From the NCBI GenBank assembly GCA_032718475.1, contig JAUCBJ010000459.1:1827-65826 (forward strand): 64,000 nt of DNA, in the 5' to 3' direction. Shown here in pieces: positions 1 through 64,000 of this stretch; within the stretch, counting starts at the first letter, position 1; each line of letters starts with the position of its first letter. The notes under the pieces are model-generated. The model did no database searches and was not told the DNA's origin. It saw only the letters and a list, made by a program, of their open reading frames with translations. The stretch is from Nemertoderma westbladi (lineage: Eukaryota; Animalia; Xenacoelomorpha). The translations under genes and the position numbers were made by a program.

Positions 1-2384
1 CATTGGATAGGCGAACATTTCTTACAGTGAAAGTATTTTCATACCTATTATAGTTTTAGAGATAGTCAGACATGAGTTGAAAAAATTGGAATTTTTTTTG
101 GTAAAGTCTGATTTTATCGGTACCTGTCATCCAAAATATGGGTTATGATATATCGTTGGATGCGGGTCCCCTAACTGTACAATCACATTTTTTCAAAAAA
201 AAAATTCGATCAACGGTTCTCGAAATATTATCGAATTACCGGAAGCTGACTTTGGACGACTATATCTCCGGTACCGGTAGGCCTATTGAGTTGAATTTTG
301 TTTTAACTTACTCAGAACGGTCCAGTGAATGTTTCTTATTTATAAATTTTTGTCTGAAAATGCATACATCAGATTTCTTAAAAACTGATCTTTTGCGATC
401 ATGATCTTTTGACCCTCTAGAATTGAACTTTTTTATGCCCAAATTTTGGCTACCCCCCTAATTCGAGGGTGAGGAATCTTTTTGTGATGTTAAGTTTTTC
501 CATACGGTAAACTCACAGGACTTGCTCTTTGAAATAAAACCGAAAACACGATCTTTCCTGATCGCTGCCTGATCAAATCACTTTTAGGAAATTTCGAAAT
601 ACTCAAAAGTTGCCCCTTCCTAATAGAAGTCGATTAGTAAAAAAAAAATCGGGGGTCTCAAACAAAGTTTTCGAGAAAATTTGAAAAAACCGAAAAACGC
701 GATCTTTTACGATCAGGTAGCATATCTCGAGATCCGGTTGTCCGATCGAGCCAATTTTTTTTTTAATCAACTCAGAATGGACCAGTAAACATTTCTTACA
801 ATGAATGTTTATTAGAAAAATGATTAGATTAGATTTTAAAAGTACTGATCTGTTCGCGATCATGATCTTGAGTTTTGACCCACTAGACTTGAACTTTTTT
901 ATGCCCAAATTTTGGCTACCCCCCCTAATTCGAGGGTGAGGAATCTTTTTGCGATGTTAAGTTTTTCCATACGGTGAACTCACAGGACTTGCTCTTTGAA
1001 ATAAAACCGAAAACACGATCTTTTCTGATCACGGCCTGATCAAATCGCTTTTTGAAAATTTCGAAATGCACAAAAGGTGCCCCATCACCATAGAAGTCCA
1101 TTCGTAAAAAAAAAATCGGGGGTCTCAAACAAAGTTTTCGAGAAAAATCTAAAAAACTAAAAAAACACGATCTTTTATGATCAGGTATCAGATCTCGAGA
1201 ACCAGTTGTCCGATCGAGCCAATTTTTTTTTTAATCGACTCAGGGCGGTGCCCCGAAGGTTTCTTACAGTAATTGTTTAATCCGAAAGTGCTTAGTTACG
1301 ATTTTATTAAAGTCCGATCTTTGCCGATCATGATCTTGAGTTTTGACCCACTAGACTTGAACTTTTTTATGCCCAAATTTTGGCTACCCCCCCTAAGTCG
1401 AGGGTGAGGAATCTTTTTGTGATGTTAAGTTTTTCCATACGGTGAACTCACAGGACTTGGTCTTCAAAATAAAACCGAAAACACGATCTTTTCTGATCAC
1501 GGCCTGATCAAATCGCTTTTTGGAAATTTCGAAATGCACAAAAGGTGCCCCTTCACCATAGAAGTCGATTCGAAAAAAAAAAATCGGGGGTCTCAAACAA
1601 AGTTTTCGAGAAAATTGAAAAAAACCAAAAAACACGATCTTTTTCGATCAGGAAGCATATCTCGAGAACCGGTTGTCCGATCGAGCCAATTTTTTTTTTA
1701 ATCGACTCAGGGCGGTGTTCTGAAGGTTTCTTACAGTAATTGTTTATATCCAAAATGTTTAGTTACGATTCTATGAAGTCCGATCTTTGCGCGATCCGGA
1801 TCTTGCGTTTTGATCGGGAAGACTTTACTTTTTTTAAAATTTTTTAACGGGAATCATAACTAATGTGGGGTCGCTGAATCTTTTTGTGATTGAACTTTTT
1901 TCCATAGGAGCAACCCTTGAGTGTCCGATCTTTGATCAAAACCGATCTTTGCCGATCGCCGCCAAGATCTTGATCGGAAACATTGTAACTTTTTCATGTG
2001 CCTTAAAACCCTATACTGTCTACATAATGGCGTTGGTCCCAACTTCGCAGCGTTAGCGGTTCTTGAGATTTTTGCATAGCAACGGCAGTTGCCAAGGAAC
2101 ACGTTTTTTCGCCTCAAATTGGCCCTAGCCGGAGAACCGTCGAGATTCACGAGTCGCCGAGTTTCACTAAAAGTCTTGTAATTAAATTTTGGGGGGGGGT
2201 CTAGGAACATTTTATTGGTGGTTTTGGCCTAGTTCTCGAGATAACCTTCTACTCTCTCAAAAAGGCTATCTCTAATTTTCCGAAGCCAGTTCAGTTAGGT
2301 CGCCGTCGAAGGGATCGCGGCCAGAGTGATGTTAGTAGTCCTACGGACATTATACCTTGCTGGCGGAACGGCCCATACATCCAG
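1..2384 (-). mobile_element. Terminal part of a Helitron-like array member (truncated by the window edge), made of ~467-bp modules and ending at junction J1
   Basis: Near-identical to 52790-55091 and 56900-59284; ends with GTAGTCCTACGGAC...GGCCCATACATCCAG (2335-2384). Confidence 0.75.
390..1975. repeat. ~467-bp tandem modules, 3 copies plus a degenerate fourth, rich in GATC/TCGA and A/T tracts
   Basis: ATGCCCAAATTTTGGCTACCCCCC at 435, 901 and 1369. Confidence 0.9.
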
Positions 2385-2497
2385 GGGAAAAACCAGTGGG
2401 CACTCTCTATAGCCGAGTGGGGCACTTGTTACCACATCCGTAGCGTACCACAGCCATAGTGTACCACCTACCTGTAAGGAGCAGGAGGAGAAGCAAC

Positions 2498-2752
2498 AGG
2501 GGTCGTCGCTCGAAAAGGGCCAGAGCCCGATGTATGGGATCACATGTGTATTGCAGTACAAGCAGTGTTTGCGACGCTTCCTTTACAACACATCTGCATC
2601 GCTTGTAAATCCGTTGCGGTTAGGGGTCGTTGCTCGAAAAGGGCCAGCGCCCGATGTATGGGATCACATGTGTATTGCAGTACAAGCAGTGTTTGCGACG
2701 CTTCCTTTACAACACATCTGCATCGCATGTAAATTATCCGTTGCGGTTGGGG
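2498..2752. repeat. 124-bp direct tandem duplication
   Basis: GGGGTCGTYGCTCGAAAAGGGCCAG at 2499 and 2623. Confidence 0.9.
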
Positions 2753-3179
2753 ACCGCGTGTTAGTTCGGTTGGCGACCGAATTTTAAAAAAGCAAGCTTA
2801 TTGGTTTTATAATTATTAGTGTGTTTTCAAAGCATCTGCCCATTGCATTGGAATTATCAGTTGCTGTTCACCACCAATTATTTCTTTGGTTGGCAACCGT
2901 CTTGAAAGAAAGATGTTGTTTATATATAGTGATGACTGATCTAATAATAAACAACATGCAAGCTTGTTATATTATTTTGATGCCTTGAAATTATACTGCA
3001 GCAAGTCCCACCCACAAGTAAGGAAAGTGGGGGGGGGGGGGGTCCCCCCCCCACTACACCCCCCCCCCTCGAACCTAAAAGTCACTGTATATGGGGCTCG
3101 GTCGCTACGCTCCCTCGCCAAACAGTTTTAACATCAGGTTCAATCCTACACTGTAACATAGACTATATCTCAAGGAAAA

Positions 3180-4720
3180 AATTTTTTTTTTCCCATCTCT
3201 TTTCCAGGGAAACTATAAGACTCGAAGGCTCGAAATAATTATTGGGGATATTGTTTTTCATCCTCTACACGTTGCAAGTGGTCCCGAAGCCGTATCTATC
3301 TTGGTTCTTGAGATATTGATGAATTTGATAATTTTCACCGCCGGTGTCTCACCGGATAACGGTGCATCGACATTGCCCAAAACTGTTCTCGCGCACTCCT
3401 CGGACCATTCTAGGGGGTGTCTACACACATGTCTAGTATGAAAAAGTTGATAGAAATCGAGATTTTTGATGAAAAAAAAATATTTTTTTTCCGCTTTTTT
3501 TCCGTTTTTTTTCCGGAAAAAAATTCCAAAATTTTTCATTTACGGGTTATTTACTGCTCTCTACACGATGCAACCGTCGCCTAGTCCGCAGCTATCGCCA
3601 GTTTGGCTGTAGCTCAACCCAAAAATGGAACGGTGTAATTGCGGTGCGAAAAATTTAACCGAGCCTCACCGGAGCACCGTTGAATGAAATTGGCCAAAAT
3701 CAAACACGAGCACTCCTCGGACCATTCTAGGGGGTGTCTACACACATGTCTAGTATGAAAAAGTCGATGGAAATCGAAATTTTTGAGATGGGAAAAAAAA
3801 ATTTTTCCCCTATTTTCCCGGGAAACTTGAAAACTTGAGGTCCCAAAAAAAGAATTGGTAGCCTTATTTTAGCCGCTCTATCGATTGCCGTTGACCCCGT
3901 GACCATAGCATTAGCCACTTTTTCCATTAAGCTCCCACTCAAAGGAAAAGTGGAATTCCGGCGGTAAATTTTCAATGAAGCCTCACCGGAGCACCGTCGA
4001 ATGAAATTGGCCAAAAACAAACACGAGCACTCCTTGGACCATTCTAGGGGGTGTCTACACACATATCTAGTATGAAAAAGTTGATAGAAATCGAGATTTT
4101 TGAAGAAAACAAAATTTTTTTTTTCCGCTTTTTTTCCGCTTTTTTTCCGGAAAAAAAATCCAAACTTTTTCTTTTACGGGTTATTTATTGTTCTCTACAC
4201 GATGCAACCGTCGCCTAGTCCGCAGCTATCGCCAGTTTGGCTGTAGCTCACTCGAAAAATGGGACGGTGGAATTACGGTGCGCAAAATTAAACCGAGCCT
4301 CACCGGAGAACCGTCGAATGAATTTGGCCAAAATTTTGTTGGAGCACTCCTCGGACCATTCTAGGGGGTGTCTACACACATGTCTAGTATGAAAAAGTTG
4401 ATGTAAATCGAAATTTCAGCCGGAAAAAAAAATTTTTGTTTTCCGTTTTTTTTCCGGAAAAAATTTACTTTCAGTTTTAGAAAAAAAAATTGTATATGAG
4501 ATTTTTACATCCTCTACACGATGCAATCGTCGCCTAGGCCGCAGCTATCGCGGATTTTTTTTTTTTTGGGAAAAACAATTTTCCGGTGTTTTCCGGTGTT
4601 TTTCCGGTGAAGGGTCGGACGGATCTCGGAGAAAAAAAATTGCATCCCTTATTTTTTCGTTCCGAATCTTTTCCCCCTACATTTATATTATGAAAAAATG
4701 AGCGGTTCTCGAGATAAGCT
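3180..4720. repeat. 317-bp tandem modules (4 or more diverged copies)
   Basis: CACTCCTYGGACCATTCTAGGGGGTGTCTACACACAT at 3394, 3711, 4028 and 4345. Confidence 0.9.
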
Positions 4721-4870
4721 TCTGCAATCTAAAAAAGGCTATCCCATGAGGGCGTCAGTAATCCGCCTAGACTAGTAATTGGAGCTTTCGTTGAAGCTTT
4801 AGTGGCCGAAAGAGTATACGTAGTGCATATCGCACAATACACCATACGGTTTTGAGGCCCACCCATCCAG

Positions 4871-5356
4871 TAAGCGTACCGAGAGACACTCTCTATAGCC
4901 GAGTGGGGGCACTTTATTCCCAACCCCGAAACAAACAAAATATCATAACCCTCTATCAATCAAATAATAGTTGTGGGTGAGAGCTGACGAGTATAATTTA
5001 TGGCACGAATTGGGTTCGGCTTGTGTCGCGTAATGCGGGTTTGGCCCCGATCGATATAGTAACATATTAGTAATGCAACTGCGTAAACAAACTACAAGAA
5101 GTTATGACAATGATTGAAGGATTCATATTTAGTGATATGTTACGTATGATTGTTATCTATATGTTCTAATGGGTAGATATAATTATTTTTTATTACTCTT
5201 TACTTTAAAGTGCATGCTGGGCTCTACTCTCTCAAAAATCTTAACAATTCTGAAACCAGTTCATGTAAGAGCATTGGAATGGCTGCGTTTGCATGGTTGG
5301 GTTGGTTGAGTAGTCCTACAGACATTACCTTGTCGATGTGTAACCCATATATCCGA
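4871..5356 (-). mobile_element. 486-bp mini member (J2-J3), essentially two termini joined by a short spacer
   Basis: Starts TAAGCGTACC plus hairpin 4887-4905; ends CTACTCTCTCAAAAA...CCAGTTCA...GTAGTCCTACAGAC...CCCATATATCCGA, like 2248-2384; second copy at 55092-55581. Confidence 0.6.
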
Positions 5357-5838
5357 TAAGCAACTGAGGGTGAACTCTCTAAAGCCGAGTTGGGGCACTT
5401 TATAATAATAACAAGTAATCACAAACCCCGTCCTCTTATAAGTTATCATAATTTTGGAGTAAAGAAGATGGTTTAAGTCCCAATTTATAAAGTAACATTA
5501 TTATTAATGCAACCATATAGACAAAGTGGAAGATATGGATTAATAATTAACTTATCCTTTATTAACTTATCCTTTATTAATCCTACTTACTTCAAAGTGC
5601 CAATTGTAATAATAATGAAACATTTTCCAGTTAATCCGGGTTTCACCCCATTTGATATTATACTGAGGCATTATATATTAATATAACCTTGCAAGTAAAC
5701 AAGAAATAAAGCAAATGTTTCTAATCTTAGATTTAGAGTGATTTTAGAGATTTAGAGTATAGGTATATAATATAGAATGGTAATGAAGTAAATGATAATG
5801 AGTAAGATGATAATTATAAAACATCTGGAATGCCTTTC

Positions 5839-5985
5839 CATTACTTTACAATATTTATTGTCCTCCAACCCCGCCCACCACCCTCATTACATTATAATAT
5901 TTATTGTCCTCCAACCCCGCCCACCACCCCCATTACTTTATAATATTTATTGTCCTCCAACCCCGCCCACCACCCTCATTACTTT
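5839..5985. repeat. 46-bp tandem repeat x3
   Basis: CATTAC...TTTATTGTCCTCCAACCCCGCCCACCACCC at 5839, 5885 and 5931. Confidence 0.9.
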
Positions 5986-6711
5986 ATAAGAATGGGAGAA
6001 TTTTGTACGCTCGTTAAGCCAAAGAATGCCTGTTCACCACCATGGGTAATCTTCTACAGTAAACCCTTCCACTCTTCCACATTACTTTATAACAACCCCC
6101 ATTAACAACTTACCTAGAAATTGCATTCTCCAGAATACCAATATGTAAACAAAGAGTTGATAGATGACAACTATTACCAGAATCATCTAAATATTCCATT
6201 ACATATGTTTGAAACTATAAATTGACTAATTACGAAGAAATGTTTATAAATAAAATTTAAATAAAAGATATGATAGAGATAAATTAATCAAAAAGTTAAT
6301 AAAAAGTTTCTCTTCAAACAATAATTTAATAATCACAATTAATCATATACATACATACTATAATTATATAACATACTTACCATTACTAGTATATTTAGTA
6401 ACTTGCCATCTTCGATAACTTCAAAACAACATATATCCATATTATATCATTATAATAATCACAATAATGATATAGTGATTATGAAGAAGAAGTAGCCATC
6501 ATGCTTTACAGAGACTTTGGACTCTTATGTCTTGCAATATTAATTTACATTTCTACTACCAAGTTCTATCGGAGATTGAAGATATGATAGTAAAGTAGTA
6601 AATATCACAAAGCATAGTGCATTTCCTACTTAATGTATTCTCCTCAGTGTTCTTTCCAAGTAGGCCATGTGTCCATAAAATTACCCATACCAACAAATTA
6701 TGGTGTGAAGA

Positions 6712-7015
6712 ACAAAAGACAAAAGTCAAAAGACAAAAATCAAAAGACAAAAGTCAAATCACAAATGTCAATAGACAAAAGTCAAAAGACAAAAGTCAAA
6801 AGACAAATGTCAAGTCATAAGACAAAAGTCAAACGACATAAGACAATAGTCAAAAGACAAAAGTCAAAAGACAAAAGTCATAAAACAAAAGTCAAACGAC
6901 AAAAGACAAAAGTCAAAAGACTAAAGTCAAAAGTCAAAAGACAAAAGTCAAAAGACAAAAGTGAAATAACAAAAGTCAAAAGAAAAAAGTCAAAAGACAA
7001 AAGTCAAAAGACATA
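6712..7015. repeat. Heptamer minisatellite (CAAAAGA/CAAAAGT)n
   Basis: Direct reading; a short remnant also lies at ~17090-17160. Confidence 0.9.
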
Positions 7016-7384
7016 AGTAAAAAGGATATCAACCAAAAGTCAGTTAGGTAAAAATATGAACGCCATGGGTATTGACAAAAATAAACAACCATGATAATCA
7101 CATTTATATAAATCCATCATGACATGTCATTTTGTTTTTGGCAATATTCGGTTAACCATATTTACAATTATGTTAAAAAGATAATAGAATGTCTTTAAAA
7201 CACAAAATTGATAATATGACAAGAACACTGTGTCATCAAGGAGAAACATGGTTTGGCTGGAATTGACCAAATTCCAGCCAACCCGCCTTAAAAAGACGGG
7301 TTAGGTTCTTGCCCACCCTGGATTAGAGAGAGAGAGAGTTAGCATGGTAAGAGAATTGATGGTTCAGATATATTGACAGAATGA

Positions 7385-8790
7385 CATTCTTTCCTGCCTT
7401 AATTATGCAAGCTAAAACCAAGGCACAGTACACAACTGTGTTAAATAATATTTATATATCAATTCTCCAGGCAGGGAGCATCCCCACAAACTCGCAAAGA
7501 ATTGAAAAATATTACAACCTTGATAAAGCCTCATATGTGTATAATTGACTGTGTTTATGCTAAAAGGATCTCCAGGCACAATATGGTGGAAGGAATGAAA
7601 CATGGCGCAGCATACACAACAACCATGAACAAACCAATATCCAGTCTGAATAAGGCGGGATAGTATATAATATTGTCCAGATAGTATGATGATGATCAAA
7701 GCAAATCCACTGTCAACAGACTATGCAAAAGTCCAAAATAATTAATGTTTCGACCCTGGGCGCGCAATGCTCGACCCATGGTTAAACTATAAATATTAGG
7801 ACACTTCACAAACACACAGACAGATTGAAAGATCTTGTTATTCCAGTATTCTTATCATGAGATTTTAATTCTTTCCTGCCTTAATTATGCAGGCTAAAAC
7901 CAAGGCACAGTACACAACAGTGTTAAATAACATTTATATATCAATTCTCCAGGCAGGGAGCGTCCCCACGAAACTCGCAAAGAATTGAAAAATATTACAA
8001 CCTTGATAAAGCCTGCATTTATAAAGCCTCATATGTGTATAATTGACTGTGTTTATGCTAAAATGATCTCCAGACACAATAGGGTAGATGGAATGAAACA
8101 TGGCGCAGCATACACAACAACCATGAACAAACCAATATCCAGTGATGATCAAAGCAAGTTCACTGTCAACAGACTGCAAAAGTCCAAAATAATTAATGTT
8201 TCGACCCTGGGCGGGCAATGCTCGACCCATGGTTAAACTATAAATATTAGGACACTTCACAAACACACAGACAGATTGTAAGAATTTCCTAAAATCTTAA
8301 CAATGAGAAAATGTAATGAACAACACCCGGGACAAACAAAATGTTCATCTCTAGAGTAATTGTTCTTACGAATTCTCAAAGAAAGTAGATCTTATTATTC
8401 CAGTATTCTTATCATGAGATTTTAATTCTCTCCTGCCCTAATTATGCAGACTAAAACCAAGGCACAGTACACAACTGTGTTAAATAACATTTATATATCA
8501 ATTCTCCAGGCAGGGAGCATCCCCACAAACTCGCAAAGAATTGAAAAATATTACAACCTTGATAAAGCCTGCATTTATAAGGCAGAATTCTGAATTTTAA
8601 AGCCTCATGTGTATAATGCAAAAGTCCAAAATAATTAATGTTTCGACCCTGGGCGGGCAATGCTCGACCCATGGTTAAACTATAAATATTAGGACACTTC
8701 ACAAACACACAGACAAGTTCACCAGGATTGAAAAATATTACAACCTTGATAAAGCCTAACTTAAGGCAGGATTCTGAATTTTAAGCCTGA
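7385..8790. repeat. Three diverged ~480-560 bp duplicated segments downstream of the RepHel stop codon
   Basis: CTAAAACCAAGGCACAGTACACAAC at 7412, 7893 and 8451; TTTCGACCCTGGGCG block at ~7748, 8198 and 8641. Confidence 0.85.
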
Positions 8791-8907
8791 ACAAGATGGG
8801 TTGGGTAGGGTAAGTTTGGAAAGTTGCAAGTTTGGCATAGCTGCATAAGCATAGGTACATGGCACACAGACATATTAGAAGACGAAGAAGAAACAAGACA
8901 CAGTAAT

Positions 8908-11900
8908 CTATTGGGACATTGGGATCTCGGCTTGCAAATTATCTTGAATTAACTCTTGGCATTTAACCATTGTTAGTTCAAAACGCTTTGCATTTCCTTC
9001 TGCATCAACATAAAACTCAGCATTATATTGACGCACAATCTCAACACCCATAGCATACACCTGGTCTCGTCCTTTGGTCATATCCCCACCTGCAGGTCCA
9101 GTCTCTGCCATATGATGCCACCTAGTCTCAAATCCCTTACGGTTGTCTGTATTGAGTTTACTCTTGGCGTCACCAGGAAACCCATATATGAAAGCATACA
9201 GAGACCAAGGATGTAAAACAGGATTCTTTGTAAACTCCGAACCTGTTTTATTTTGGTGACTCTGAAGTCTCATTTTCAGGTTCTCAGTTTGACCAGTGTA
9301 ATTCACATTAGGCAACCGAATGCTGATAAGCATATACACAAATCCAATTTGTGCACCAGGGATTTCCCTAAAGAAGGGTCGGAAGGGGTGATATTCAAGC
9401 ATGAGAGGTACCTGAGGGGGCCCAATAAGAATATTAAGACGTCGTAATAACTGGTCTATATAATCTTGATTGGGCGACTTCATGCTAAGCAAGATGCGGA
9501 TACAATTAAAGGCTTCATCCATCTTACCAACAAATGTAAATGTGTTGAGATACCGTACCCTCGATATTAAGGTTGTTATCTGGGTTTTTAACCATAGCCT
9601 ATACTTACTCTTGGCATCAGAGGAGATCTGTGTTGCTAAGCTTGGGGCATCTTGTCCTTGTATACCATGGACAGTACCTGCCCCAAAGTAGCGCACCGGA
9701 AACTGCACCCGTCTGCCGAGAAGATTGCTACCAAAACCAGTAGAAGAGGGAGCACAAGGCCGTTGCTTAACTTTAGCCACAGGCCAGGTACTCTCAACCT
9801 CTTCAATTTGACGACAACCTTTTGGAACAACAGCCAATTCCAAGAAATCATCACAATCAGCTGGTACTGCTTTAACAACAGACAATTGACCATTGGAAAA
9901 TTGAGGTTGTCCAGAAAGCTGATTGTATGTGAACCTAAGGATCTGGTTTAGAAATAAAACCAACTCCATTGGTTCCCGACAAGATCTCGTGATTGAACTG
10001 ATAATGCTGGGAGTGTTTGTAGGCTTCCATGAAGTAGTATTAGATGCAGTAGAACTAACCTCATCATGGCCGCTTATTACAACTGTCCCAGGCTCATTCC
10101 TATGGAGGTTTAGGTATTTCTGTAGTACCTCTTGCTCTGCAGCTCTAGTGCCAACAACCTTCAAGACATCATCAGGGACATCATCCCAACTATCAACAAA
10201 GTTACACCGCCGCTTCAATATAGCAATCACTTCATCAATAAGGTTTGGACTTGGGTTGGATCTTCGCATAATATTAATGACATATTGCAATTCTTGGTCA
10301 TTAGCACTGCGAACGTAATGCCTTGCCACACAAACAGTGAATGTTGTTAAAAAATGTGTGCTAAGCCATACAACCCTACCATCCACAGGTTCTAATTGTA
10401 GATGATCTCCACACCCAATGAAGAGTTTGCCACCGAAGGGTCTCTGTGTGTTACAGATTCGGCGTAATACCAAGTCAATAGCTGCAAGATACTCACATGA
10501 GAGCATTCCACATTCCTCAAAGAAGATAACATTCAATCTTTGGAGATATGCGAGTTTGGATGGATTCTTTGCCAGGGATAATAAGCAATCCTGGGCTAAA
10601 CAAGTGCTAGTTAATGAGCGTGAACCTCTACCAACACTGAATGGCATCAGTAGATGTAGATGTACACCACCAAGCAACCTAGCTCTCTCACTGGTAATAG
10701 CAGTTAGCTGCACATTTAAACCACGCGAGAGGCTATATGCCAGTCCCATTAGCATAACATGAGTCTTGCCAACACCAGGTGCGCCAACCAACCAAGGGGA
10801 TTTAACAAATGTTGATGATGGATGACAATAAGCATCAACAGCATTCACCAATACTTGTAGCATATTCTTTTGCTCAGCAATAGATTCCCCAGTTTGGCCA
10901 CTAGCCACATCCAGTAAAGGTTGCCACTCTAGAGGATGAGCCCGTGTAGCACGTGCTAAATCAGCCATATCTGGCAAAATCAATCCCTCCTGCCCGTATA
11001 AAGCCTCTATAAGATTGTCATGGCTGATCTCCTCTAACCTTTCTACTTCTTTCGTACCTTGCACACGAATACTATCCTCATAAAATAGAGGAATAGCCTC
11101 ATATAACAAGCCATCACCAGCAAAGAATTGCCGAATACCAGTGATTGAAAGATGTAGATAACGTTGGAATTGTGCACTACCAATAGATTGATAATGCAAG
11201 TCTCTCATGACATAGGATTTCAATAAGTCAGTGACTTCACATTCTGGCACAATAACATCATCAGATATTAGACTTGCCTTCTTGAAAGTTGTACGAATAT
11301 CCTGAACATCTAATAAATCTAGTTCAGTCTCGAAACTTCCAAGGGAATAGGCAAGGTGAAACAAGAAACGTCCCATTTGCAATGGGCTAACACTTGAGAA
11401 CACAACTATGGCAGGTTTCTTATGTTTCTCGAGCGAACTCACAAAGATCTTATGAAGTTGTCCTCTGGATATAGGTAAGAATACCTCATCCAATAACTGT
11501 CTAGCGATAACATTACCAGTTGTAGCCTTTCTTGTTAGAAATTCTACAGCTAACGGAATGCCAGAAGGTCGTAGCTTCCATAGATGGTTATTACCATCTA
11601 TCCAATAGCACTTCTTCAGATCCAAATCAATATGATAATTCTTGGCATTTCCTACAACACAAAAGCATTCGTAGAATATGTCAAGCTTATCAAAGATTCG
11701 AAGCTCAGGAGCTCTTACACTGAAAGAAGTTAAACCATCAGCAATATAATCACTCTTACCCATCTCATTGACAGTAAGAATTTGATTATTTGTGAAGTTA
11801 CGCCATTCTGGTAAACCTGGCATCATTAATCGCGTTTGAACAGCTTCAAGGACTCCTAAATGAACATCTCTTGTTTGTTGTTTCACAATGCCATGCCGGT

Positions 11901-16318: not shown

Positions 16319-16324
16319 AATGGC

Positions 16325-24975: not shown

Positions 24976-33390
<8,415 letters not shown>

Positions 33391-48260: not shown

Positions 48261-48267
48261 CAAGTAC

Positions 48268-48762: not shown

Positions 48763-48775
48763 CCCGTCGGCCGTA

Positions 48776-51235: not shown

Positions 51236-51254
51236 TTCTCTACTGAATAATGAA

Positions 51255-52789: not shown

Positions 52790-55091
52790 ATTATAATTTT
52801 TTTTTTGTAAAGTCTGATTTTACCGGTACCTGTCATCCGAAATATGGATTGTGATATACCGTTGGATGCGGGTCCCCTAACTGTACAATCACATTTTTTC
52901 AAAAAAAAAATTCCATCAACGGTTCTCGAAATATTATCGAATTACCGGAAGCAGACTTTGGACGACCATATCTCCGGTACCGGTAGGCCTATTGAGTTGA
53001 ATTTTGTTTTAACTTACTCAGAACGTTCCAGTGAATGTTTCTTATTTAGAAATGTTTGTCTGAAAATGCATACATCAGATTTCTTAAAAACTGATCTTTT
53101 GCGATCATGATCTTTTGACCCTCTAGAATTGAACTTTTTTATGCCCAAATTTTGGCTACCCCCCCTAATTCGAGGGTGAGGAATCTTTTTGTGATGTTAA
53201 GTTTTTCCATACGGTGAACTCACCGGACTTGCTCTTTGAAATAAAACCAAAAACACGATCTTTCCTGATCGCTGCCTGATCAAATCACTTTTTGTAAATT
53301 TCGAAATACTCAAAAGTTGCCGCTTCTTAATAGAAGTCGATTAGTAAAAAAAAAATCGGGGGTCTCAAACAAAGTTTTCGAGAAAATTGGAAAAAACCGA
53401 AAAACACGATCTTTTACGATCAGGTAGCATATCTCGAGATCCGGTTGTCCGATCGAGCCAATTTTTTTTTTAATCAACTCAGAATGGACCAGGAAACATT
53501 TCTTACAATGAATGTTTATTAGAAAAATGATTAGATTAGATTTTAAAAGTACTGATCTGTTCGCGATCATGATCTTGAGTTTTGACCCACTAGACTTGAA
53601 CTTTTTTATGCCCAAATTTTGGCTACCCCCCCTAATTCGAGGGTGAGGAATCTTTTTGCGATGTTAAGTTTTTCCATACGGTGAACTCACAGGACTTGCT
53701 CTTTGAAATAAAACCGAAAACACGATCTTTTCTGATCACGGCCTGATCAAATCGCTTTTTGAAAATTTCGAAATATACAAAAGGTGCCCCTTAACCATAG
53801 AAGTCGATTCGTAAAAAAAAAATCGGGGGTCTCAAACAAAGTTTTCGAGAAAAATCTAAAAAACTAAAAAAACATGATCTTTTATGATCAGGTATCAGAT
53901 CTCGAGAACCAGTTGTCCGATCGAGCCAATTTTTTTTTTAATCGACTCAGGGCGGTGCCCCGAAGGTTTCTTACAGTAATTGTTTAATCCGAAAGTGCTT
54001 AGTTACGTTTTTATTAAAGTCCGATCTTTGCCGATCATGATCTTGAGTTTTGACCCACTAGACTTGAACTTTTTTATGCCCAAATTTTGGCTACCCCCCC
54101 TAAGTCGAGGGTGAGGAATCTTTTTGTGATGTGAGGTTTTTCCATACGGTGAACTCACAGGACTTGGTCTTCAAAATAAAACCGAAAACACGATCTTTTC
54201 TGATCGCGGCCTGATCAAATCACTTTTTGAAAATTTCGAAATGCACAAAATGTGCCCCTTCTTATTAGAAGTCGATTCGTAAAAAAAAAATCGGGGGTCT
54301 CGATGATAGTTTTCGAGAAAATTAAAAAAAACCAAAAAACACGATCTTTTTCGATCAGGAAGCATATCTCGAGAACCGGTTGTCCGATCGTGCCAATTTT
54401 TTTTTTAATCGACTCAGGGCGGTGTTCTGAAGGTTTCTTACAGTAATTGTTTATATCCAAAATGCTTAGTTACGATTTTACGATGTCCGATCTTTGCGCG
54501 ATCCGGATCTTGCGTTTTGATCGGGAAGACTTCACTTTTTTTAATTTTTTTTAACGGGAATCATAACTAATGTGGGGTCGATGAATCTTTTTGTAATGTT
54601 AAGTTTTTCGATTGGAGCAAGCCTTGAGTGTCCGATTGCTGATCAAAACTGATCTTTGCTGATCGCGGTCAAGATCATGTTCGGATCGCTCCAAAAAAGA
54701 TCATTTAAATGTTAACCCATATGCTGCCTATCGATTGGCGCCGGTCCCAACTCCATAGCATTAGCCGTTTTGGCTGTAGCTCCCTAGCAACGGCGGTTGC
54801 CAAGGAACCCGTTTTTTCGCCTCAAATTGGCCCTAGCCGGAGAACCGTTGAGATTCACGAGTCGCCGAGTTTCACTAAAAGTCTTGTAATTAAATTTTGG
54901 GGGGGGGTCTAGGAACATTTTATTGGTGGTTTTGGCCTAGTTCTCGAGATAACCTTCTCAGCCGTTTTTTGGGACCCTGCCAAATATTCCGAAGCCAGTT
55001 CAGCGAGATGGCCGTCGTCGGGCTTTGGGCCGGAGTGATGTTAGTAGTCCTACGGACATTATACCTGTCGGTGAACGGCCCATACATCCAG
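52790..55091. repeat. Terminal block of ~467-bp modules of the giant element
   Basis: Colinear with 90-2384 and 56990-59284. Confidence 0.85.
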
Positions 55092-55581
55092 TAAGCGTAC
55101 CGAGAGACACTCTCTATAGCCGAGTGGGGGCACTTTATTCCCAACCCCGAAACAAACAAAATATCATAACCCCCCTCTATCAATCAAATAATAGTGGTGG
55201 GTGGGAGCTGGCGAGTAGAATTTATGGCACGAATTGGGTTCGGCTTGCGTCGCATCATGCGGGTTTGGCCCCGATCGATATAGTAACATATTAGTAATGC
55301 AACTGCGTAAACAAACTACAAGAAGTTACGACAATGATAGAAGGATTCATATTTAGTGATATGTTATGTATGATTGTTATATATATATATTCTAATAAGT
55401 AGATGTAATTATTTATTATTACTCTTTACTTTAAAGTGCATGTTGGGCTCTACTCTCTCAAAATCTTAACAATTCTGAAACAAGTTCATGTAGGTGAGTT
55501 GGAATGACTGCGTTCGCATGGCCGGGTTGGTTGAGTAGTCCTACGGATATTAGCCTGTCAATGTGTGGCCCATATGTCCGG
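55092..55581 (-). mobile_element. 490-bp mini member (J4-J5)
   Basis: Copy of 4871-5356; hairpins at 55108-55126 and 55538-55548. Confidence 0.6.
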
Positions 55582-58500
55582 TAAGCAACCGAGGGTGCAC
55601 TCTCTAAAGCCGAGTGGGGGGCACTTTATAATAATAACAAGTAATCACGAACCCCGTCCTCTTATAAGTTATCATAATTTTGGATTAAAGAAAATTGTTT
55701 TAGACCCAATTGATAAAGTAACATTATTATTAATGCTACCATATAGACAAAGTTGAAGATATGGATTAATAATTAATTTATCCTTTATTAACTTATCCTT
55801 TATTAATACTACATACTTCAATGTGCCAATTGTAATAATAATGAAACATTTTCCAGTTAATACAGGTTTCACCCCATTTGATATTATACTGCGGCATTAT
55901 ATATTAATATAACCTCGCAGGCAAACAAGAAGTAAAGCAAATGTTTCTTATCTTAGATTTAGAGTGATTTTAGAGATTTAGAGCTTAGTGAATGATTAGA
56001 GAATTAAAAAATATGCCAGTACTTGCCTTTTGATCAGATAATCAAAGCGTCTTTAGTATAGTACCATAATAATATCAATTAGCAATCTGTTATACAATAT
56101 AAATACTAAAATCTATTTTTCAAATATATTAAGAGCCCAACATTGTATATTTATCCTACAGGTGGAGAATCTAGTTTATTAGAACTTCATATAATTTGGT
56201 ATAATGTATAATATGTTATAAATAAGACTGAGGTACCTAAACTATATTGAAAAGAAATCAAATACCCGAAAGTAATATACTAGCCCCTCCCTCCACCCTA
56301 TAAATAGTGTTTGCCACCTACCCCACCCACCACCCTTGGCGCTCCGGTCACTCCGTTCCCTCCGCGGGGGGATTAAGTAGTCGGTTTTGATACTATGCAA
56401 AATCTGAGCACAGCGTTAGAAGCGCATTGGATAGGCAAACATTTCTTGCGGTGAAAGTATTTTCATACCTATTATAGTTTTCAAGATAGTCAGGCATGAG
56501 TAGCAAAAATTTGAATTTTTTCTGGTAAAGTCTGATTTTACCGGTACCTGTAATCCGAAATATGGATTGTGATATATCGTTGGATGCGGGCCACCAAACT
56601 GTACATTCACATGTTTTCAAAAAAAATTTTCGATAAATGGTCATCGAGTTATCATAAAATTACGAGAATCAGACTTTGGACGACCATATCTCTGGTACCG
56701 GTAGGCCTATTGAGTTGAATTTTTTTAAAACTTACTTAGAACGGTCCATTGAATGTTTCTTAGTTTGAAAATTTTGTCTGAAAAGGCTTACATCAAAATT
56801 CTAAAAAACCGATCTTTTGCGATCGTGGTGATCAGGGCTTAAGTTGTTTATATCTCGAAAACTAATGACCGTGGTAGAAATCTGAATACATCGTTAGAAG
56901 CGCATTGGATAGGCCAACATTTCTTACAGTGAAAGTATCTTCATACCTATTATAGTTTTAGAGATAGTCAGACATGAGTAGAAAAAATTTGAATTTTTTT
57001 TGGTAAAGTCTGATTTTACTGGTACCTGTCATCCAAAATATGGGTTGTGATATATCGTTGGGTGCAGGTCCTGTAACTGTACAATCACATTTTTTCAAAA
57101 AAAAAATTCGATCAACGGTTCTCGAAATATTATCGAATTACCGGAAGCAGAATTTGGACGACCATATCTCCGGTACCGGTAGGCCTATTGAGTTGAATTT
57201 TGTTTTAACTTACTCAGAACGTTCCAGTGAATGTTTCTTATTTAGAAATTTTTGTCTGAAAATGCATACATCAGATTTCTTAAAAACTGATCTTTTGCGA
57301 TCATGATCTTTTGACCCTCTAGAATTGAACTTTTTTATGCCCGAATTTTGGCTACCCCCCCTAATTCGAGGGTGAGGAATCTTTTTGTGATGTTAAGTTT
57401 TTCCATACGGTGAACTCACAGGACTTGCTCTTTGAAATAAAACCGAAAACACGATCTTTCCTGATCGCTGCCTGATCAAATCACTTTTTGGAAATTTCGA
57501 AATACTCAAAAGTTGCCCCTTCCTAATAGAAGTCGATTAGTAAAAAAAAAATCGGGGGTCTCAAACAAAGTTTTCGAGAAAATTGGAAAAAACCGAAAAA
57601 CACGATCTTTTACGATCAGGTAGCATATCTCGAGATCCGGTTGTCCGATCGAGCCAATTTTTTTTTAATCAACTCAGAATGAACCAGTGAACATTTCTTA
57701 CAATGAATGTTTATTAAAAAAATGCTTAGATTCAATTTTAAATATACTGATCTTTTCGTGATCATGATCTTGAGTTTTGACCCACTAGACTTGAACTTTT
57801 TTATGCCCAAATTCTGGCTACCCCCCCTAATTCGAGGGTGAAGAATCTTTTTGCGATGTTAAGTTTTTCCATACGGTGAACTCACAGGACTTGCTCTTTG
57901 AAATAAAACTGAAAACACGATCTTTTCTGATCACGGCCTGATCAAATCGCTTTTTGAAAATTTCGAAATGCACAAAAGGTGCCCCATCACCGTAGAAGTT
58001 GATTCGTAAAAAAAAAATCGGGGGTCTCGATGATAGTTTTCGAGAAAAATCTAAAAAACTAAAAAAACACGATCTTTTATGATCAGGTATCAGATCTCGA
58101 GAACCAGTTGTCCGATCGAGCCAATTTTTTTTTTAATCGACTCAGGGCGGTGCCCCGAAGGTTTCTTACAGTAATTGTTTAATCCGAAAGTGCTTAGTTA
58201 CGATTTTATTAAAGTCCGATCTTTGCAGATCATGATCTTGAGTTTTGACCCACTAGACTTGAACTTTTTTATGCCCAAATTTTGGCTACCCCCCATAATT
58301 CGAGGGTGAGGAATCTTTTTGTGATGTTAAGTTTTTCCATACGGTGAACTCCCAGGACTTGGTCTTCGAAATAAAACCGAAAACACGATCTTTTCTGATC
58401 GCGGCCTGATCAAATCGCTTTTTAAAAATTTCGAAATGCACAAAAGGTGCCCCTTCTTATTAGAAGTCGATTAGTAAAAAAAAAATCGGGGGTCTCGATG

Positions 58501-59284
58501 ATAGTTTTCGAGAAAATTGAATAAAACCAAAAAACACGATCTTTTTCGATCAGGAAGCATATCTCGAGAACCGGTTGTCCGATCGAGCCAATTTTTTTTT
58601 TAATCGACTCAGGGCGGTGTTCTGAAGGTTTCTTACAGTAATTGTTTATATCCAAAATGCTTAGTTACGATTTTACGATGTCCGATCTTTGCGCGATCCG
58701 GATCTTGTGTTTTGATCGGGAAGACTTCACTTTTTTTTAATTTTTTTAACGGGAATCATAACTAATGTGGGGTCGATGAATCTTTTTGTAATGTTAAGTT
58801 TTTCGATTGGAGCAAGCCTTGAGTGTCCGATTGCTGATCAAAACTGATCTTTACTGATCGCGGCCAAGATCATGTTCGGATCGCTACAAAAAAGATTATT
58901 TAAATGTAAACCCATATGCTGCCTATCGATTGGCGCCGGTCCCAACTCCGTAGCATTAGCCGTTTTGGCTGTAGCTCCCTAGCAACGGCGGTTGCCGAGG
59001 AACCCGTTTTTTCGCCTCAAATTGGCCCTAGCCGGAGAACCGTTGAGATTCACGAGTCGCCGAGTTTCACTAAAAGTCTTAGAATTAAATTTTGGGGGGG
59101 GGTCTAGGAACATTTTATTGGTGGTTTTGGCCTAGTTCTCGAGATAACCTTCTACTTCTCTAAAAAAGGCAACCATTAGTTTTCCGAAGCCAGTTCAGCG
59201 AGGTGGCCGTCGTCGGGCTTTGGGCCGGAGTGATGTTTGTAGTCCTACGGACATCACGTAAACGGAACTGGCCCATACATCCAG
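55582..59284 (-). mobile_element. 3.7 kb non-autonomous relative of the giant element (J5-J6)
   Basis: Shares both ends with 5357-55091; GA-hairpin at 56341-56365; no coding region. Confidence 0.7.
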
Positions 59285-61647
59285 TAAGAAACCGAGAATG
59301 TACTCTCTATAGCCGAGTAGGGGCACTTATTTCCCGACCCCAAACAATGTATATAATCATGGCCCTCTACCCGATGCAATGTACGCGTACGTACCCTTAT
59401 GTTGGGAGGTCTATTTGCTAGCGGTTTGCTATATCGTTGCGAACGCTCGTTGCGAGTTAAGTTTATTGCTGCAGCGCATTGTTTCCAGAAATGTGTAAGT
59501 AATGTGTTCCACTATCGTTTTATACATGTCCGTTTCATGGGGTGAGAGTGGTTGCACTTATTTTATACAATATCGGCAATCATCGACATAGGCTAATTGT
59601 GCGTAACTGTTAACTGTTTTCAATACTTTCAAAGTGTCCAACCCCGACACAAAATTACATTATTTCTACCTGGGTATTAGATTGTCGAAAGGCCAAATCC
59701 TTCCTATCTCATGCTGTGGGTATATACAAAATTATTATAATGATTGAATTTATTATAAAGCCATTTTGTCTTTTTATGAGATGAGATAGACACCTTATCA
59801 ATAATATTACCTTGCTATTGATTTGTTAATTAATATAATTATATAAGACATGCGGTAATGCTTACTATGAATGATACATGCCATTATGCATTCGTAAGGC
59901 AGACAATACGTTCTAATTAGTTTACTAACCATACTATACAAACTGAGAAAGTGCTGCGCACGCTACGCTGACTATTCCCCTCCCCCTCAACCCAACCACC
60001 ACCCCAAGGTCGCTCCGGTCGCTCCACTCCCTCCGCTCCACTATTCCAATCGCATTCCCGAGTCAATTGAAAAAATATATAATTTTATATTTCAAGATTA
60101 TAGGTAAAGTTGTATGTATTGACAAAACTACTGAACGTATTGCAAATCTGAATACAGCTTTAGAACGGCATTGCATAGGCGAACATTTCTTGCACTGAAA
60201 GTTTTTTCATATCTGTTATAGTTTTCGCAACAGTCAGACATGAGCGACGGTTACATCGAATATTTACAGTAAAGTCTGATTTTACCGGTAGCTGTCATCC
60301 GCAATATGGATTATGATACATCGTCAGAAGTGGGTCATCAAACTGTACATTCACATTTTTTCAAAAACAAAATTCGATGATCGGTTCTCGAGTTATCGTC
60401 AAATTACGGAAAGCTGACTTTGGAGGACCATATCTCCGGAACCGGTAGGCCTATTGAGTCAGAATCCATTTTAATCTACTTGAAACACTCCAGTAAATGT
60501 TTTTTAATTTGAAAGTTTCATTCTAAAATGCTTAGAAATAATTTTACCAAAGTCCGATCTTTCGATCATATTGTAGACCAGTTTTGACCTTGAAGAATTA
60601 AGTTTTTTTGAAATTTTGTTTGACCTACCCCCCCTAAGTCGATGATGAGGAACATTTTTGCTGTGTTACACTTTTCGATAGGGTCACTCCTTCTGCGTCC
60701 GATTTTCAAAAAAACACGATCTTTGTACGATCGGCCATATATCGACCTGATCAAATTGCTTTTTGAAAATTTCGAAATGCACAAAAGTTGCCCCTTACTC
60801 AGAGCTATCGATTAATAAAATAAAATTGGGGGGTCAAGCCTTTCGTTTATGAGTTATTTAGAAAAAACTGAAAAATATGATCTTTTACGATCAGGGCCAG
60901 ATCAGGCACTTCTATTGCAGTTGATGGAATATCCTTCGTATGGGAGGTACTCCTAACATTGTTCTATCGAATTATAAAAAAAAAATCGGGGGTCAAGCCT
61001 TTCGTTCTCGAGTTATTCGAGTTACCGTAACCTGACCTTTTGATCATTTACGGGATCTTCGGGAGCCCTTTTGACCCCCTAGAATTCAACTTTTTTATGC
61101 CCATCTTTTGGCTACCCCCCCTAAGTCGATAGTGCTGAACATTTTTGTAATACTTCATTTTTCCATACGGGCAATTCCTGAGTGTCCGATTTTTGATCAA
61201 AACTGATCTTTGCAGATCACTCAAAAACGAGACGGGAAACCCCCATTTTTTATGGCACTTTTCAATACAAACATATATATTTTACGTCTAATGGCAAAGT
61301 TTCAAAAAAATCTGAACGGTGGAAATTGGAAATGTAACCGTTTTCCACCATTTCCGCTTTTTTCGACTTTGACGGACAATATCTCGAGAACCGTTGGTCG
61401 TACGGAAAAATTTTCAATCACAAAAATGATCGGAATTAAATTTTGAGGGGGGGTATAGGAACATCTTATTGGAAGATTTCGCCTCCTTGTGCCATAAACT
61501 GCACACCTCTCTAAAAAAGGCTATCGTTAGATCACGACTATGCGTTCAAGACTAGGTGCGGACAAGTGGGATTGTCCGAGTGGGTGGTATGGTGTTAGTT
61601 AGTACTACGTACAGAGAAACCTGTGTTTCTGAGCCCAAGACATCCAG
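59285..61647 (-). mobile_element. 2363-bp non-autonomous member of a diverged subfamily (J6-J7)
   Basis: Bounded by CATCCAG|TAAG; TACTC-TCTATAGCC-GAGTA at 59301-59319; GTAC-TAC-GTAC at 61602-61612; module block homologous to the 467-bp family. Confidence 0.75.
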
Positions 61648-64000
61648 TAAGAAACCGAGAATGTACTCTCTATAGCCGAGTAGGGGCACTTATTTCCCGA
61701 CCCCAAACAATGTATATAATCATGGCCCTCTACCCGATGCAATGTACGCGTACGTACCCTTATGTTGGGAGGTCTATTTGCTAGCGGTTTGCTATATCGT
61801 TGCGAACGCTCGTTGCGAGTTAAGTTTATTGCTGCAGCGCATTGTTTCCAGAAATGTGTAAGTAATGTGTTCCACTATCGTTTTATACATGTCCGTTTCA
61901 TGGGGTGAGAGTGGTTGCACTTATTTTATACAATATCGGCAATCATCGACATAGGCTAATTGTGCGTAACTGTTAACTGTTTTCAATACTTTCAAAGTGT
62001 CCAACCCCGACACAAAATTACATTATTTCTACCTGGGTATTAGATTGTCGAAAGGCCAAATCCTTCCTATCTCATGCTGTGGGTATATACAAAATTATTA
62101 TAATGATTGAATTTATTATAAAGCCATTTTGTCTTTTTATGAGATGAGATAGACACCTTATCAATAATATTACCTTGCTATTGATTTGTTAATTAATATA
62201 ATTATATAAGACATGCGGTAATGCTTACTATGAATGATACATGCCATTATGCATTCGTAAGGCAGACAATACGTTCTAATTAGTTTACTAACCATACTAT
62301 ACAAACTGAGAAAGTGCTGCGCACGCTACGCTGACTATTCCCCTCCCCCTCAACCCAACCACCACCCCAAGGTCGCTCCGGTCGCTCCACTCCCTCCGCT
62401 CCACTATTCCAATCGCATTCCCGAGTCAATTGAAAAAATATATAATTTTATATTTCAAGATTATAGGTAAAGTTGTATGTATTGACAAAACTACTGAACG
62501 TATTGCAAATCTGAATACAGCTTTAGAACGGCATTGCATAGGCGAACATTTCTTGCACTGAAAGTTTTTTCATATCTGTTATAGTTTTCGCAATAGTCAG
62601 ACATGAGCGACGGTTACATCGAATATTTACGGTAAAGTCTTTTTTTACCGGTAGCTGTCATCTGCAATATGGATTATGATACATCGTTAGAAGCGGGTCA
62701 TCCAATTGTACATTCACATTTTTTCAAAAACAAAATTCGATCATCGGTTCTCGAGTTATCGTCAAATTACGGAAAGCGGACTTTGGAGGACCATATCTCC
62801 GGTACCAGTAGGCCTATTGAGTCAGAATCCATTTTAATCTACTTGAAACACTCCAGTAAATGTTTTTTAATTTGAAAGTTTCATTCTAAAATGCTTAGAA
62901 ATAATTTTACTAAAGTCCGATCTTTCGATCATATTGTAGACCAGTTTTGACCTTGAACAATTAACTGTTTTTGAAATTTTGTTTGACCTACCCCCCCTAA
63001 GTCGATGACGAGGAACATTTTTGCTGTGTTACACTTTTCAATAGGGTCACTCCTTCTGTGTCCGATTTTCAAAAAAACACGATCTTTGTACGATCGGCCA
63101 TATATCGACCTGATCAAATTGCTTTTTGAAAATTTCGAAATGCACAAAAGTTGCCCCTTGCTCAGAGCTATCGATTAATAAAAAAAATTGGGGGGTCAAT
63201 AGCTCCGTTTTCGAGTTATTTAGAAAAAACCGAAAAATATGACCTTTTACGATCGGGGTCAGATCAGGCACTTCTAATGCATTTGATGGAATTTCCTTCT
63301 TATGGGAAGTACTCCTAAGATTGTTCTATCGAATTATGAAAAAAAAATCGGGGGTCTACAGCTTCGTTCTCGAGTTATTCGAGTTAGCGTAACCTGATCT
63401 TTTGATCATTTGCGGTACCTTCGGGGGCCCTTTTGACCCCCTAGAATTCAACTTTTTTATGCCCAACTTTCGGCTACCCCCCCTAAGTCAATGGTGCTGA
63501 ACATTTTTGTAATACTTCATTTTGCCATACGGGCAATTCCTGAGTGTCCGATTTTTGACCAAAACTGATCTTTGCAGATTACTCAAAAACGAGACGGGAA
63601 ACCCCCATTTTTTATTGCACTTTTCAATACAAACCCATATATTTTACGTCTAATGGCAAAGTTTCAGAAACTTCTCTTAGGCGGAAATTCGAAATGTAAC
63701 CGTTTTCCACCATGTCCGCTTTTTTCGACTTTGACGGACAATATCTCGAGAACCGTTGGTCGTACGAAAAAATTTTCAATCACAAAAATGATCGGAATTA
63801 AATTTTGAGGGGGGGTCTAGGAACATCTTATTGGTCGTTTTCGCCTCCTTGTGCCATAAAGTGAACTCCACTCTAAAAATTGCCATCGTTAAAGAACGAC
63901 TTTGCGTTCAAGACTAGGTGCGGACAAGCGTGGTTGTCCGAGTGGGTGGTATGGTGTTAGTTAGTACTACGTACATAGAACCTGTTGGTTTCTTTGCCCA
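61648..64000 (-). mobile_element. Tandem second copy of the 2363-bp member, ending just beyond the window
   Basis: Colinear with 59285-61647 at offset ~2363; the window ends at ...GTACTACGTAC...TTTGCCCA. Confidence 0.75.

What the first reader, a model, noticed from the sequence alone, without database searches (positions are those of the whole stretch)
2335..64000. Self-targeting head-to-tail array of heterogeneous rolling-circle elements joined at one conserved site
Seen: seven junctions (2384, 4870, 5356, 55091, 55581, 59284, 61647) plus one at the window edge, all in the same orientation. They delimit units of 2486, 486, 49735, 490, 3703, 2363 and ~2363 bp with no host DNA or TSD between them. 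Homology switches inside CATCCAG: J1 and J4 share the left side and diverge after it, while J2/J4 and J6/J7 differ on the left and match after it. Known: Helitron rolling-circle read-through yields tandems of identical copies. Inference: because these neighbours belong to different subfamilies, the elements appear to integrate or recombine specifically at each other's termini, forming a cassette-like array driven by the resident Rep-helicase-GIY-YIG protein.
Basis: partly seen in the sequence, partly recalled or inferred. Interest (0 to 1): 0.9.

Follow-up and report, generated by a model that had tools for sequence, protein, structure and literature searches.

The report
Rolling-circle transposons stacked end to end
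Four kinds of rolling-circle transposon units sit end to end here, every joint falling in one short shared core, and the resident Helitron-type enzyme, which carries an extra nuclease domain, likely inserts new units at the ends of old ones instead of at random host sites.

Summary
Seven co-oriented junctions and the start of an eighth are present, with the stated unit sizes. Four unit types (B, C, D..A, E) meet in six pairings. Where flanks swap, the switch maps to the 7-bp core. B sits in an exact copy of the J4 site with the core on both sides, an empty/filled pair.

Corrections: J3 and J5 carry variant cores and repeat the same C|D pairing. The 49.7-kb unit is about 31 kb satellite, and it is not proven to be one element.

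The resident gene is a true but very divergent Helitron RepHel (best fold match Helraiser). It belongs to a large family with named members in hagfish, tunicate and ostracod. 88 of 89 relatives with a full C-terminus keep an SLX1-like GIY-YIG domain.

Best reading (0.55): Rep nicks a resident terminus and exchanges strands with an incoming circle, as TrwC does at oriT. Main rivals: mixed concatemers joined outside the chromosome (0.2), or ordinary clustering with read-through (0.2). The genome-wide test was impossible because no assembly is held. Abutting unrelated Helitrons have been noted before; base-precise stacking and this GIY-YIG family were not found in print.

The parts
2378..2384 (+). 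J1 core CATCCAG (A-type end | B start)
4864..4870 (+). J2 core CATCCAG (B end | C start)
5350..5356 (+). J3 core TATCCGA (C end | D start)
55085..55091 (+). J4 core CATCCAG (A end | C start); the empty version of the site that B occupies
   Evidence: a read contig ends exactly at 55091
55575..55581 (+). J5 core TGTCCGG (C end | D start)
   Evidence: bridged by contigs in X1 and X3, one sample
59278..59284 (+). J6 core CATCCAG (A end | E start)
61641..61647 (+). J7 core CATCCAG (E end | E start)
63906..64000 (+). Left half of an eighth junction (E end); its core lies beyond the window
2401..2427 (+). Conserved block 16 nt right of each core: 5-bp stem, 9-nt loop, then GGGGCACTT (other copies start at 4887, 5373, 55108, 55598, 59301, 61664)
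   Evidence: closing pair is C-G in 4, T-A in 2 and A-T in 1 of 7
55026..55084 (+). Example (J4) of the left-of-core region: variable sequence, predicted long stem-loop closing 3-6 nt before the TCC
   Evidence: stability mostly not above shuffles
1..2384 (.). U0: A-type end with three 468-bp repeats; its other end lies outside the window
2385..4870 (.). U1: unit B, 2486 bp, non-coding, 317-bp repeats; no internal homology to A, C, D or E except terminal motifs
4871..5356 (.). U2: mini-unit C, 486 bp, 92% identical to U4
5357..55091 (.). U3: D start (400 bp, 94% to U5), RepHel gene, about 31 kb of satellites, A end (2.4 kb, 94% to U5); likely the autonomous member
55092..55581 (.). U4: mini-unit C, 490 bp
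55582..59284 (.). U5: non-coding D..A unit, 3703 bp; shares both ends with U3 but has its own 350-bp interior
59285..61647 (.). U6: unit E, 2363 bp, about 73% similar to A over parts of its body
61648..64000 (.). U7: unit E, identical to U6 for 946 bp, then about 7% different
8908..13521 (-). Open frame, 1537 aa: Helitron-type Rep (FFTATCN, E-x-Q, H-I-H, Y-x-x-x-Y), Pif1 helicase, C-terminal GIY-YIG
13448..16330 (-). Open frame, 960 aa, in another frame; homologous to the N-terminal half of single-chain relatives; no Pfam or Atlas match
16069..16956 (-). Open frame, 295 aa, OTU-like protease; the same chain as RepHel in 3 of 22 relatives scanned
18220..51847 (.). Satellite block inside U3 (19, 4, 27, 46/92, 40 and 64-bp periods) with about 3.4 kb of unique sequence at 33.6-36.95 kb

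Best explanation
This is a head-to-tail array of Helitron-like rolling-circle transposon units of four families that share one junction core, and it likely grew by the resident Rep-helicase nicking an existing element end and exchanging strands there with an incoming excised unit. Shown: the shared core, the coincident breakpoints, the empty/filled pair for B, and the protein's domains. Inferred: (1) each unit excises as a circle closed at the core, as Helraiser does; (2) the enzyme nicks the same core at a chromosomal terminus, and the freed 3'-OH accepts the enzyme-linked 5' end of the circle, which places the newcomer directly against the resident and leaves a core on each side; (3) read-through of an internal junction then copies composites such as C+D..A; (4) the SLX1-like GIY-YIG domain would cut the branched or flap intermediate left by a one-strand exchange (the least supported step, about 0.35). 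The nick probably lies at CA|TCC on the + strand (5'-TC start in 7 of 7, ORF antisense; about 60%) or one base away at CTGG|ATG on the - strand (CTRR end in 5 of 7; about 40%).
For: A ends meet three different right neighbours (B, C, E), and C and E starts each meet two left neighbours. The 16-nt spacer right of the core always follows the right-hand unit, and the bases left of it follow the left-hand unit. No crossover therefore fell in the longer 27-bp shared block. A rough count for three independent joins under homology-proportional crossover gives 0.012. B occupies a J4-type site with no base gained or lost other than one more core. All 7 right ends abut a left end and no solitary end was found in the window. 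Short-read contigs show the same breakpoint: one X1 contig ends exactly at 55091; X2 and X3 show a further right-hand variant after TACATCCAG; a contig in X5 joins D to an unrelated left flank while keeping a YRTCCRR core. Family copies differ by 4-8% in patches, unlike one rolling-circle concatemer. Rep motifs and fold match Helraiser (Foldseek E 1.1e-5; VIA Z 12.6, rmsd 3.6, 211 aligned). Helraiser cleaves its own end-to-end junction precisely (PMC5876387, passages). The HUH relaxase-helicase TrwC integrates DNA into a resident copy of its own oriT (PMC3264647, abstract).
Against: One locus only: no assembly is held and no flanking DNA of any relative was obtained. One low-depth contig in X1 and X3 (same sample) carries a D-like end from 55581 with 416 bases to its left that did not lay on the stretch. 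Their letters were not shown, so they may be host DNA. Copies are recombination mosaics inside their bodies, so non-specific shuffling also acts here. The minimum number of independent heterologous joins is only three. An unoccupied CATCCAGTAA lies at 10908. The resident gene is broken into three frames. Helraiser itself inserts at AT sites across the genome and shows no local hopping (PMC4778049, passages). A strict catalytic pattern matched only 35 of 92 GIY-YIG domains, and the Arg and Glu columns are 74% and 67% conserved.
Confidence: 0.55

Rival explanations
1. Ends of different excised units are joined in trans outside the chromosome (the 3' end of one attacks the enzyme-linked 5' end of another), giving mixed concatemers that then integrate together at ordinary host sites. 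Joints are base-precise, but there is no preference for chromosomal termini.
For: It explains the same precise joints and single orientation. Helraiser forms end-to-end junctions in vitro without host proteins (PMC5876387, passages). It allows solitary copies such as the contig with an unmatched 416-base flank.
Against: It needs repeated mixing of four families into one molecule of more than 60 kb that includes a 50-kb unit. B lying in an exact A|C site that recurs empty at J4 reads more simply as a later insertion.
Confidence: 0.2
2. Ordinary Helitron clustering: elements insert at a short target such as A|TCC anywhere in the genome, element ends happen to match it, and read-through plus unequal recombination then build and shuffle arrays. 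No special targeting is involved.
For: Unrelated Helitrons directly adjacent were noted in bat and maize (PMC4067079, passage). Preference for inserting near or inside other Helitrons is cited for maize (PMC3288121, passage). The copies are mosaics. The C|D joint is carried by high-depth contigs, which fits copying as a composite (depth is not a copy number).
Against: The heptamer class YRTCCRR occurs 68 times in the window on both strands, yet unit boundaries fall only at the 7 that lie between terminal motifs. No unit is nested inside another unit's body with recognisable ends. 7-8 bp is short for homologous crossover, and the longer shared block was not used.
Confidence: 0.2
3. The array is an assembly artefact of collapsed high-copy repeats.
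For: The region is repeat-rich, U6 and U7 are identical for 946 bp, and no listed contig spans the stretch.
Against: The units differ by 4-8%. The C|D joint is bridged by short-read contigs in X1 and X3, and an A|E-type joint appears as a loose end in X3. These come from one sample, which may be the window's source.
Confidence: 0.05

Closest known systems
HLE1 Helitrons (Helraiser/Helibat; plant tandem arrays)
   Same: HUH-Y2 Rep plus Pif1 helicase; the best sequence and fold match among solved structures. Precise end-to-end junctions, read-through composites and no variable TSD (PMC4778049, PMC5876387, passages). Tandem arrays and abutting unrelated copies have been reported (PMC5876387, PMC4067079, passages).
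   Different: About 14-18% identity in the Rep fold; phmmer detects only the helicase. C-terminal GIY-YIG is conserved across the family. No cut gives both 5'-TC and CTRR-3' together. Helraiser targets dispersed AT sites.
HLE2 (Helitron2/Helentron/DINE-1, FoHeli)
   Same: Predicted stem-loops at both ends, internal tandem repeats in non-coding units, OTU upstream of RepHel, precedent for antisense ORFs (PMC3627910, PMC5148889, passages). One Sphagnum HLE2 family carries a captured GIY-YIG (PMC11417382, passage and supplement legend).
   Different: No asymmetric terminal inverted repeat above chance in 6 of 6 complete units. No DUF6570, AP-endonuclease or RPA hit in the window or in 22 relatives. 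No TT target.
Paramecium third-clade Helitrons (PMC13085455, sections 14 and 18 part 1 read)
   Same: Very large satellite-filled autonomous elements, ORF-less derivatives sharing their ends, uniform orientation, and inferred target specificity.
   Different: They insert into telomeric repeats, which separate the copies. Here no tandem TTAGGG or TTAGG repeats occur and units abut directly. No GIY-YIG mention was found in 7 supplementary files. Relationship by tree not tested.
TrwC relaxase-helicase integration at oriT (PMC3264647, abstract)
   Same: An HUH-Y2 enzyme joins incoming DNA to a resident copy of its own nick site.
   Different: Bacterial conjugative system, not a transposon; a mechanistic analogy only.
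Integron cassette arrays and CTXphi/RS1 arrays at dif (recalled, no call)
   Same: Heterogeneous, co-oriented units stacked at a site that each integration regenerates.
   Different: Those use tyrosine recombinases; none is encoded here.

Membership tests
Helitron superfamily | HUH Rep with motifs 1-3 and two catalytic tyrosines | tested here: met
   fold match to 7lcc_A at Z 12.6, rmsd 3.6, 211 aligned, model mean pLDDT 61
Helitron superfamily | Pif1-type SF1 helicase C-terminal to Rep in the same chain | tested here: met
   PF05970 E 1.6e-9; 22 of 22 relatives
Helitron superfamily | No variable target-site duplication | tested here: met
   B empty/filled pair shows only the fixed 7-bp core; tested at element-element sites only
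Helitron superfamily | Circular intermediate closed at the termini | not testable with these tools
   contigs only; no raw or long reads
HLE1 | 5'-TC and CTRR-3' termini together | tested here: not met
   + strand cut CA|TCC gives 5'-TC in 7 of 7 but 3' ends in CA, TA or TG; - strand cut gives CTGG in 5 of 7 but 5'-AT or AC
HLE1 | Hairpin shortly before the 3' end | tested here: inconclusive
   candidates exist on both sides of the core; a covarying closing pair on the right; folding not above shuffles in 13 of 14 folds
HLE1 | Insertion between A and T of host DNA | not testable with these tools
   no host flank in the window; the joints read A|T in 6 of 7 under the + strand cut
HLE2 | Asymmetric terminal inverted repeats of 8-15 bp | tested here: not met
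   longest inverted match 4-6 bp, null fraction 0.21-1.0, in 6 of 6 units
HLE2 | DUF6570 marker or AP-endonuclease domain | tested here: not met
   no Pfam hit at E 0.01 in the three window frames or in 22 relatives; divergence could hide a weak match
HLE1, HLE2 or Paramecium clade | Placement in a RepHel phylogeny | not testable with these tools
   no reference HLE1, HLE2 or Paramecium protein could be obtained (one search returned none)
Paramecium clade | Insertion into telomeric repeats | tested here: not met
   no tandem TTAGGG or TTAGG on either strand; junction sequences show no such repeats

The most novel reading that the evidence does not exclude
A deep, undescribed lineage of Helitron-like elements, spread across aquatic animals and marked by an SLX1-like GIY-YIG domain, works as a site-specific integrating system. 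Its Rep exchanges one strand at a resident element end and its own nuclease resolves the branch, so autonomous and non-autonomous families stack into integron-like cassette arrays and avoid host genes.
Probability: 0.3. Interest if true: 0.85.

Novelty: new variant of a known kind. Interest (0 to 1): 0.66.

Why it matters
How Helitrons choose and join their target is the least understood step of their cycle. A family whose target is its own terminus would give a defined substrate for that step and a testable role for a second nuclease. It would be a eukaryotic counterpart of relaxase integration at oriT. It would also offer a route to large co-oriented repeat and satellite blocks, and an integrase for large cargo at a fixed landing site. 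Independently of targeting, the family (322 cluster representatives at E up to 1e-30) scores weakly on the standard Helitron profile and is probably missed or misfiled in annotation.

Tried and rejected
No own genome is held, so the genome-wide terminus count was not done.

Junction pattern scans gave 0 matches in metagenome contigs and viral contigs. Locus searches for relatives gave 10 helicase-only matches at 22-32% in metagenomes, not examined further, and nothing in viral or prokaryote genome contigs.

The word-based protein search found 1 relative and, for longer proteins, none; the full HMMER scan was needed.

The junction is not a known RNA: Rfam 0, tRNA 0. No RNA holder was listed.

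The N-terminal 960-aa frame has no Pfam or usable Atlas hit. Its alignment looked unreliable and was not folded.

Terminal folds are mostly no more stable than shuffles: z -1.07 to +1.15 on -, and -1.96 to +2.09 on +.

Rejected: homologous crossover in the shared hairpin block as the source of new pairings; a single concatemer of identical copies; U5 as a simple deletion of U3, because its 350-bp interior is absent from U3; a telomere-capping role, because no such repeats were seen.

Five look-ups of earlier scan findings gave nothing on this family.

Not in print, as far as searched: Helitron + self-targeting, 0 papers; Helitron + GIY-YIG, 32 papers, 30 listed, 3 opened; transposon + HUH + Pif1 + SLX1, 1 unrelated paper. 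Repbase and most subscription papers, including Xiong 2016 and Yang and Bennetzen 2009, were not available.
Full report
Observation. A self-comparison of the window and motif scans confirm seven co-oriented junctions and the left half of an eighth. Each has three parts: a variable left region ending CCCA-N2-3, a core YRTCCRR (CATCCAG in 5 of 7), and, 16 nt further on, a nearly invariant 27-bp block. No solitary end and no reverse-strand junction was found.

Units. U3 (49.7 kb) and U5 (3.7 kb) share their first 400 bp (D) and their last 2.4 kb (A) at 94%. U0 is another A end. U2 and U4 are a 0.49-kb mini-unit C. U1 is B. U6 and U7 are E. The pairings are A|B, B|C, C|D, A|C, C|D, A|E and E|E. 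J3 and J5 therefore repeat one pairing, and C+D..A has probably been copied as a composite.

Breakpoints. For pairs sharing a left side, identity stops at the core end (J1/J4, J1/J6) or 4 bases after it (J4/J6). For pairs sharing a right side, it starts at the core start (J2/J4, J6/J7). The switch is thus confined to about eight positions. The 16-nt spacer after the core always follows the right-hand unit, so no exchange occurred in the longer shared block. A rough homology-proportional calculation for three independent joins gives 0.012. J1-B-J2 is the filled form of J4, with one extra core and no other change at the joint. Same-family copies differ by 4-8%, in patches; U6 and U7 are identical for 946 bp and then about 7% different. 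The array is therefore not one concatemer, and internal recombination also occurs.

Other samples. Six runs were listed, three holding the stretch, from two studies; one may be the window's source. Four were laid, all as contigs. An X1 contig ends exactly at 55091. C|D is bridged in X1 and X3, which are one sample. X3 shows an A|E-type joint as a loose end. X2 and X3 show a right-hand variant absent from the window after TACATCCAG. One of two X5 contigs joins D to an unrelated flank through a TATCCGG core. Against strict self-targeting, one low-depth contig in X1 and X3 has a D-like 89-bp end with 416 unmatched bases to its left; its letters were not shown. No A|D joint was listed, and 30 loose ends and 317 pieces were cut from the output.

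Protein. The minus-strand frame 8908-13521 has Rep motifs, Pif1 and GIY-YIG. The frames upstream match the N-terminal parts of single-chain relatives, so this is likely one gene broken twice. The full scan found 322 representatives at E up to 1e-30; the best was 36% identical. Of 21 clusters looked up, 3 carry an organism name: Myxine, Styela and Cyprideis. The host is thus probably an aquatic animal, which is an inference. Pfam finds GIY-YIG in 12 of 22 relatives. A family profile finds it in 88 of 89 hits that extend at least 120 aa past the helicase, including 65 of 66 not used to build the profile. Its closest solved structures are SLX1 (E 2.4e-10). The window's copy keeps the Tyr, Arg, His and Glu positions, but some relatives have lost them. 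Helraiser is the top sequence and fold match, at low identity. The terminal rules of HLE1 and the markers of HLE2 are not met. A tree against references could not be built, so a separate clade is likely but not shown.

Polarity. Two cuts one base apart fit the sequence. On +, CA|TCC gives every unit a 5'-TC start, a sequence-conserved block near the 5' end and a sequence-variable stem-loop near the 3' end, with the ORF antisense. In Helraiser the left end is essential and the 3' hairpin stem can be swapped (PMC4778049, passages); antisense ORFs have precedent (PMC3627910, passage; PMC13085455, section 14). On -, CTGG|ATG gives a CTRR end after a 5-bp hairpin whose closing pair covaries, but it fails at J3 and J5. 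I lean to the first, about 60%.

Mechanism. Helraiser cleaves at its left boundary and at its own end-to-end junction (PMC4778049 and PMC5876387, passages). A resident terminus is therefore a natural nick substrate, and the freed 3'-OH could accept an incoming enzyme-linked strand. TrwC does this at oriT (PMC3264647, abstract). I give this reading 0.55. End-joining between excised units followed by joint integration gets 0.2, ordinary clustering with read-through and shuffling 0.2, and an artefact 0.05. A role for GIY-YIG in resolving the branch is a further inference.

Prior knowledge. Tandem Helitron arrays, multiple termini, self-insertion and unrelated copies directly adjacent are on record (PMC5876387, PMC3288121, PMC5148889, PMC4067079; passages only). 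Target-specific, satellite-filled Helitrons are described in Paramecium (PMC13085455, passages, outline, section 14 and part 1 of section 18, supplement search). One captured GIY-YIG is described in a moss HLE2 (PMC11417382, passages and supplement legend). Passages of PMC6431247 and PMC13404089 added nothing specific. Ten searches found no description of this family or of base-precise stacking of different families at one core. Repbase, subscription papers, figures and bioRxiv supplements were not seen and may bear on that claim.

Verdict. The feature is real and more than ordinary tandem amplification. It is a new variant of a known kind, interest 0.66. The self-targeting claim rests on one locus plus fragmentary contigs and needs the genome-wide count.

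Noticed in passing
window 6712-7024 and 17087-17160: The same 7-bp satellite (ACAAAAG/GTCAAAA type) lies on both sides of the RepHel gene.
   Followed up: no
window 18220-33389 and 50648-51235: The 19-bp satellite brackets an inner block at 33.4-50.6 kb (unique DNA plus 27-, 46/92- and 40-bp satellites), suggesting a later insertion or expansion inside it.
   Followed up: no
window 24973-33268: About 8 kb of TCTG-type microsatellite, interleaved with 19-bp blocks; it produces long spurious open frames.
   Followed up: no
window 10908-10917: Unoccupied CATCCAGTAA inside the RepHel frame, matching 10 bases of the junction without terminal motifs.
   Followed up: partly
window 52564-52595 and 56337-56368: A 32-bp motif shared by U3 and U5 just inside their A ends, separated from the main homology.
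   Followed up: no
window 2350-2370, 55057-55076, 59250-59269, 61610-61632: The stretch 15-35 nt left of the core is hypervariable even among A copies, yet folds into a small hairpin in several junctions.
   Followed up: partly
window 55581-55667: Read contigs match only the first 87-89 bp of D and then diverge in several ways, indicating further families with D-like ends.
   Followed up: partly
window 13448-16330 (-): A conserved cysteine-rich N-terminal region of about 700 aa, shared with relatives, with no Pfam or Atlas match.
   Followed up: partly
proteins P0007, P0020, P0025, P0028, P0034, P0035: These relatives keep the GIY-YIG-like block but appear to have lost catalytic residues, so the nuclease may be inactive in a sub-lineage.
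   Followed up: no
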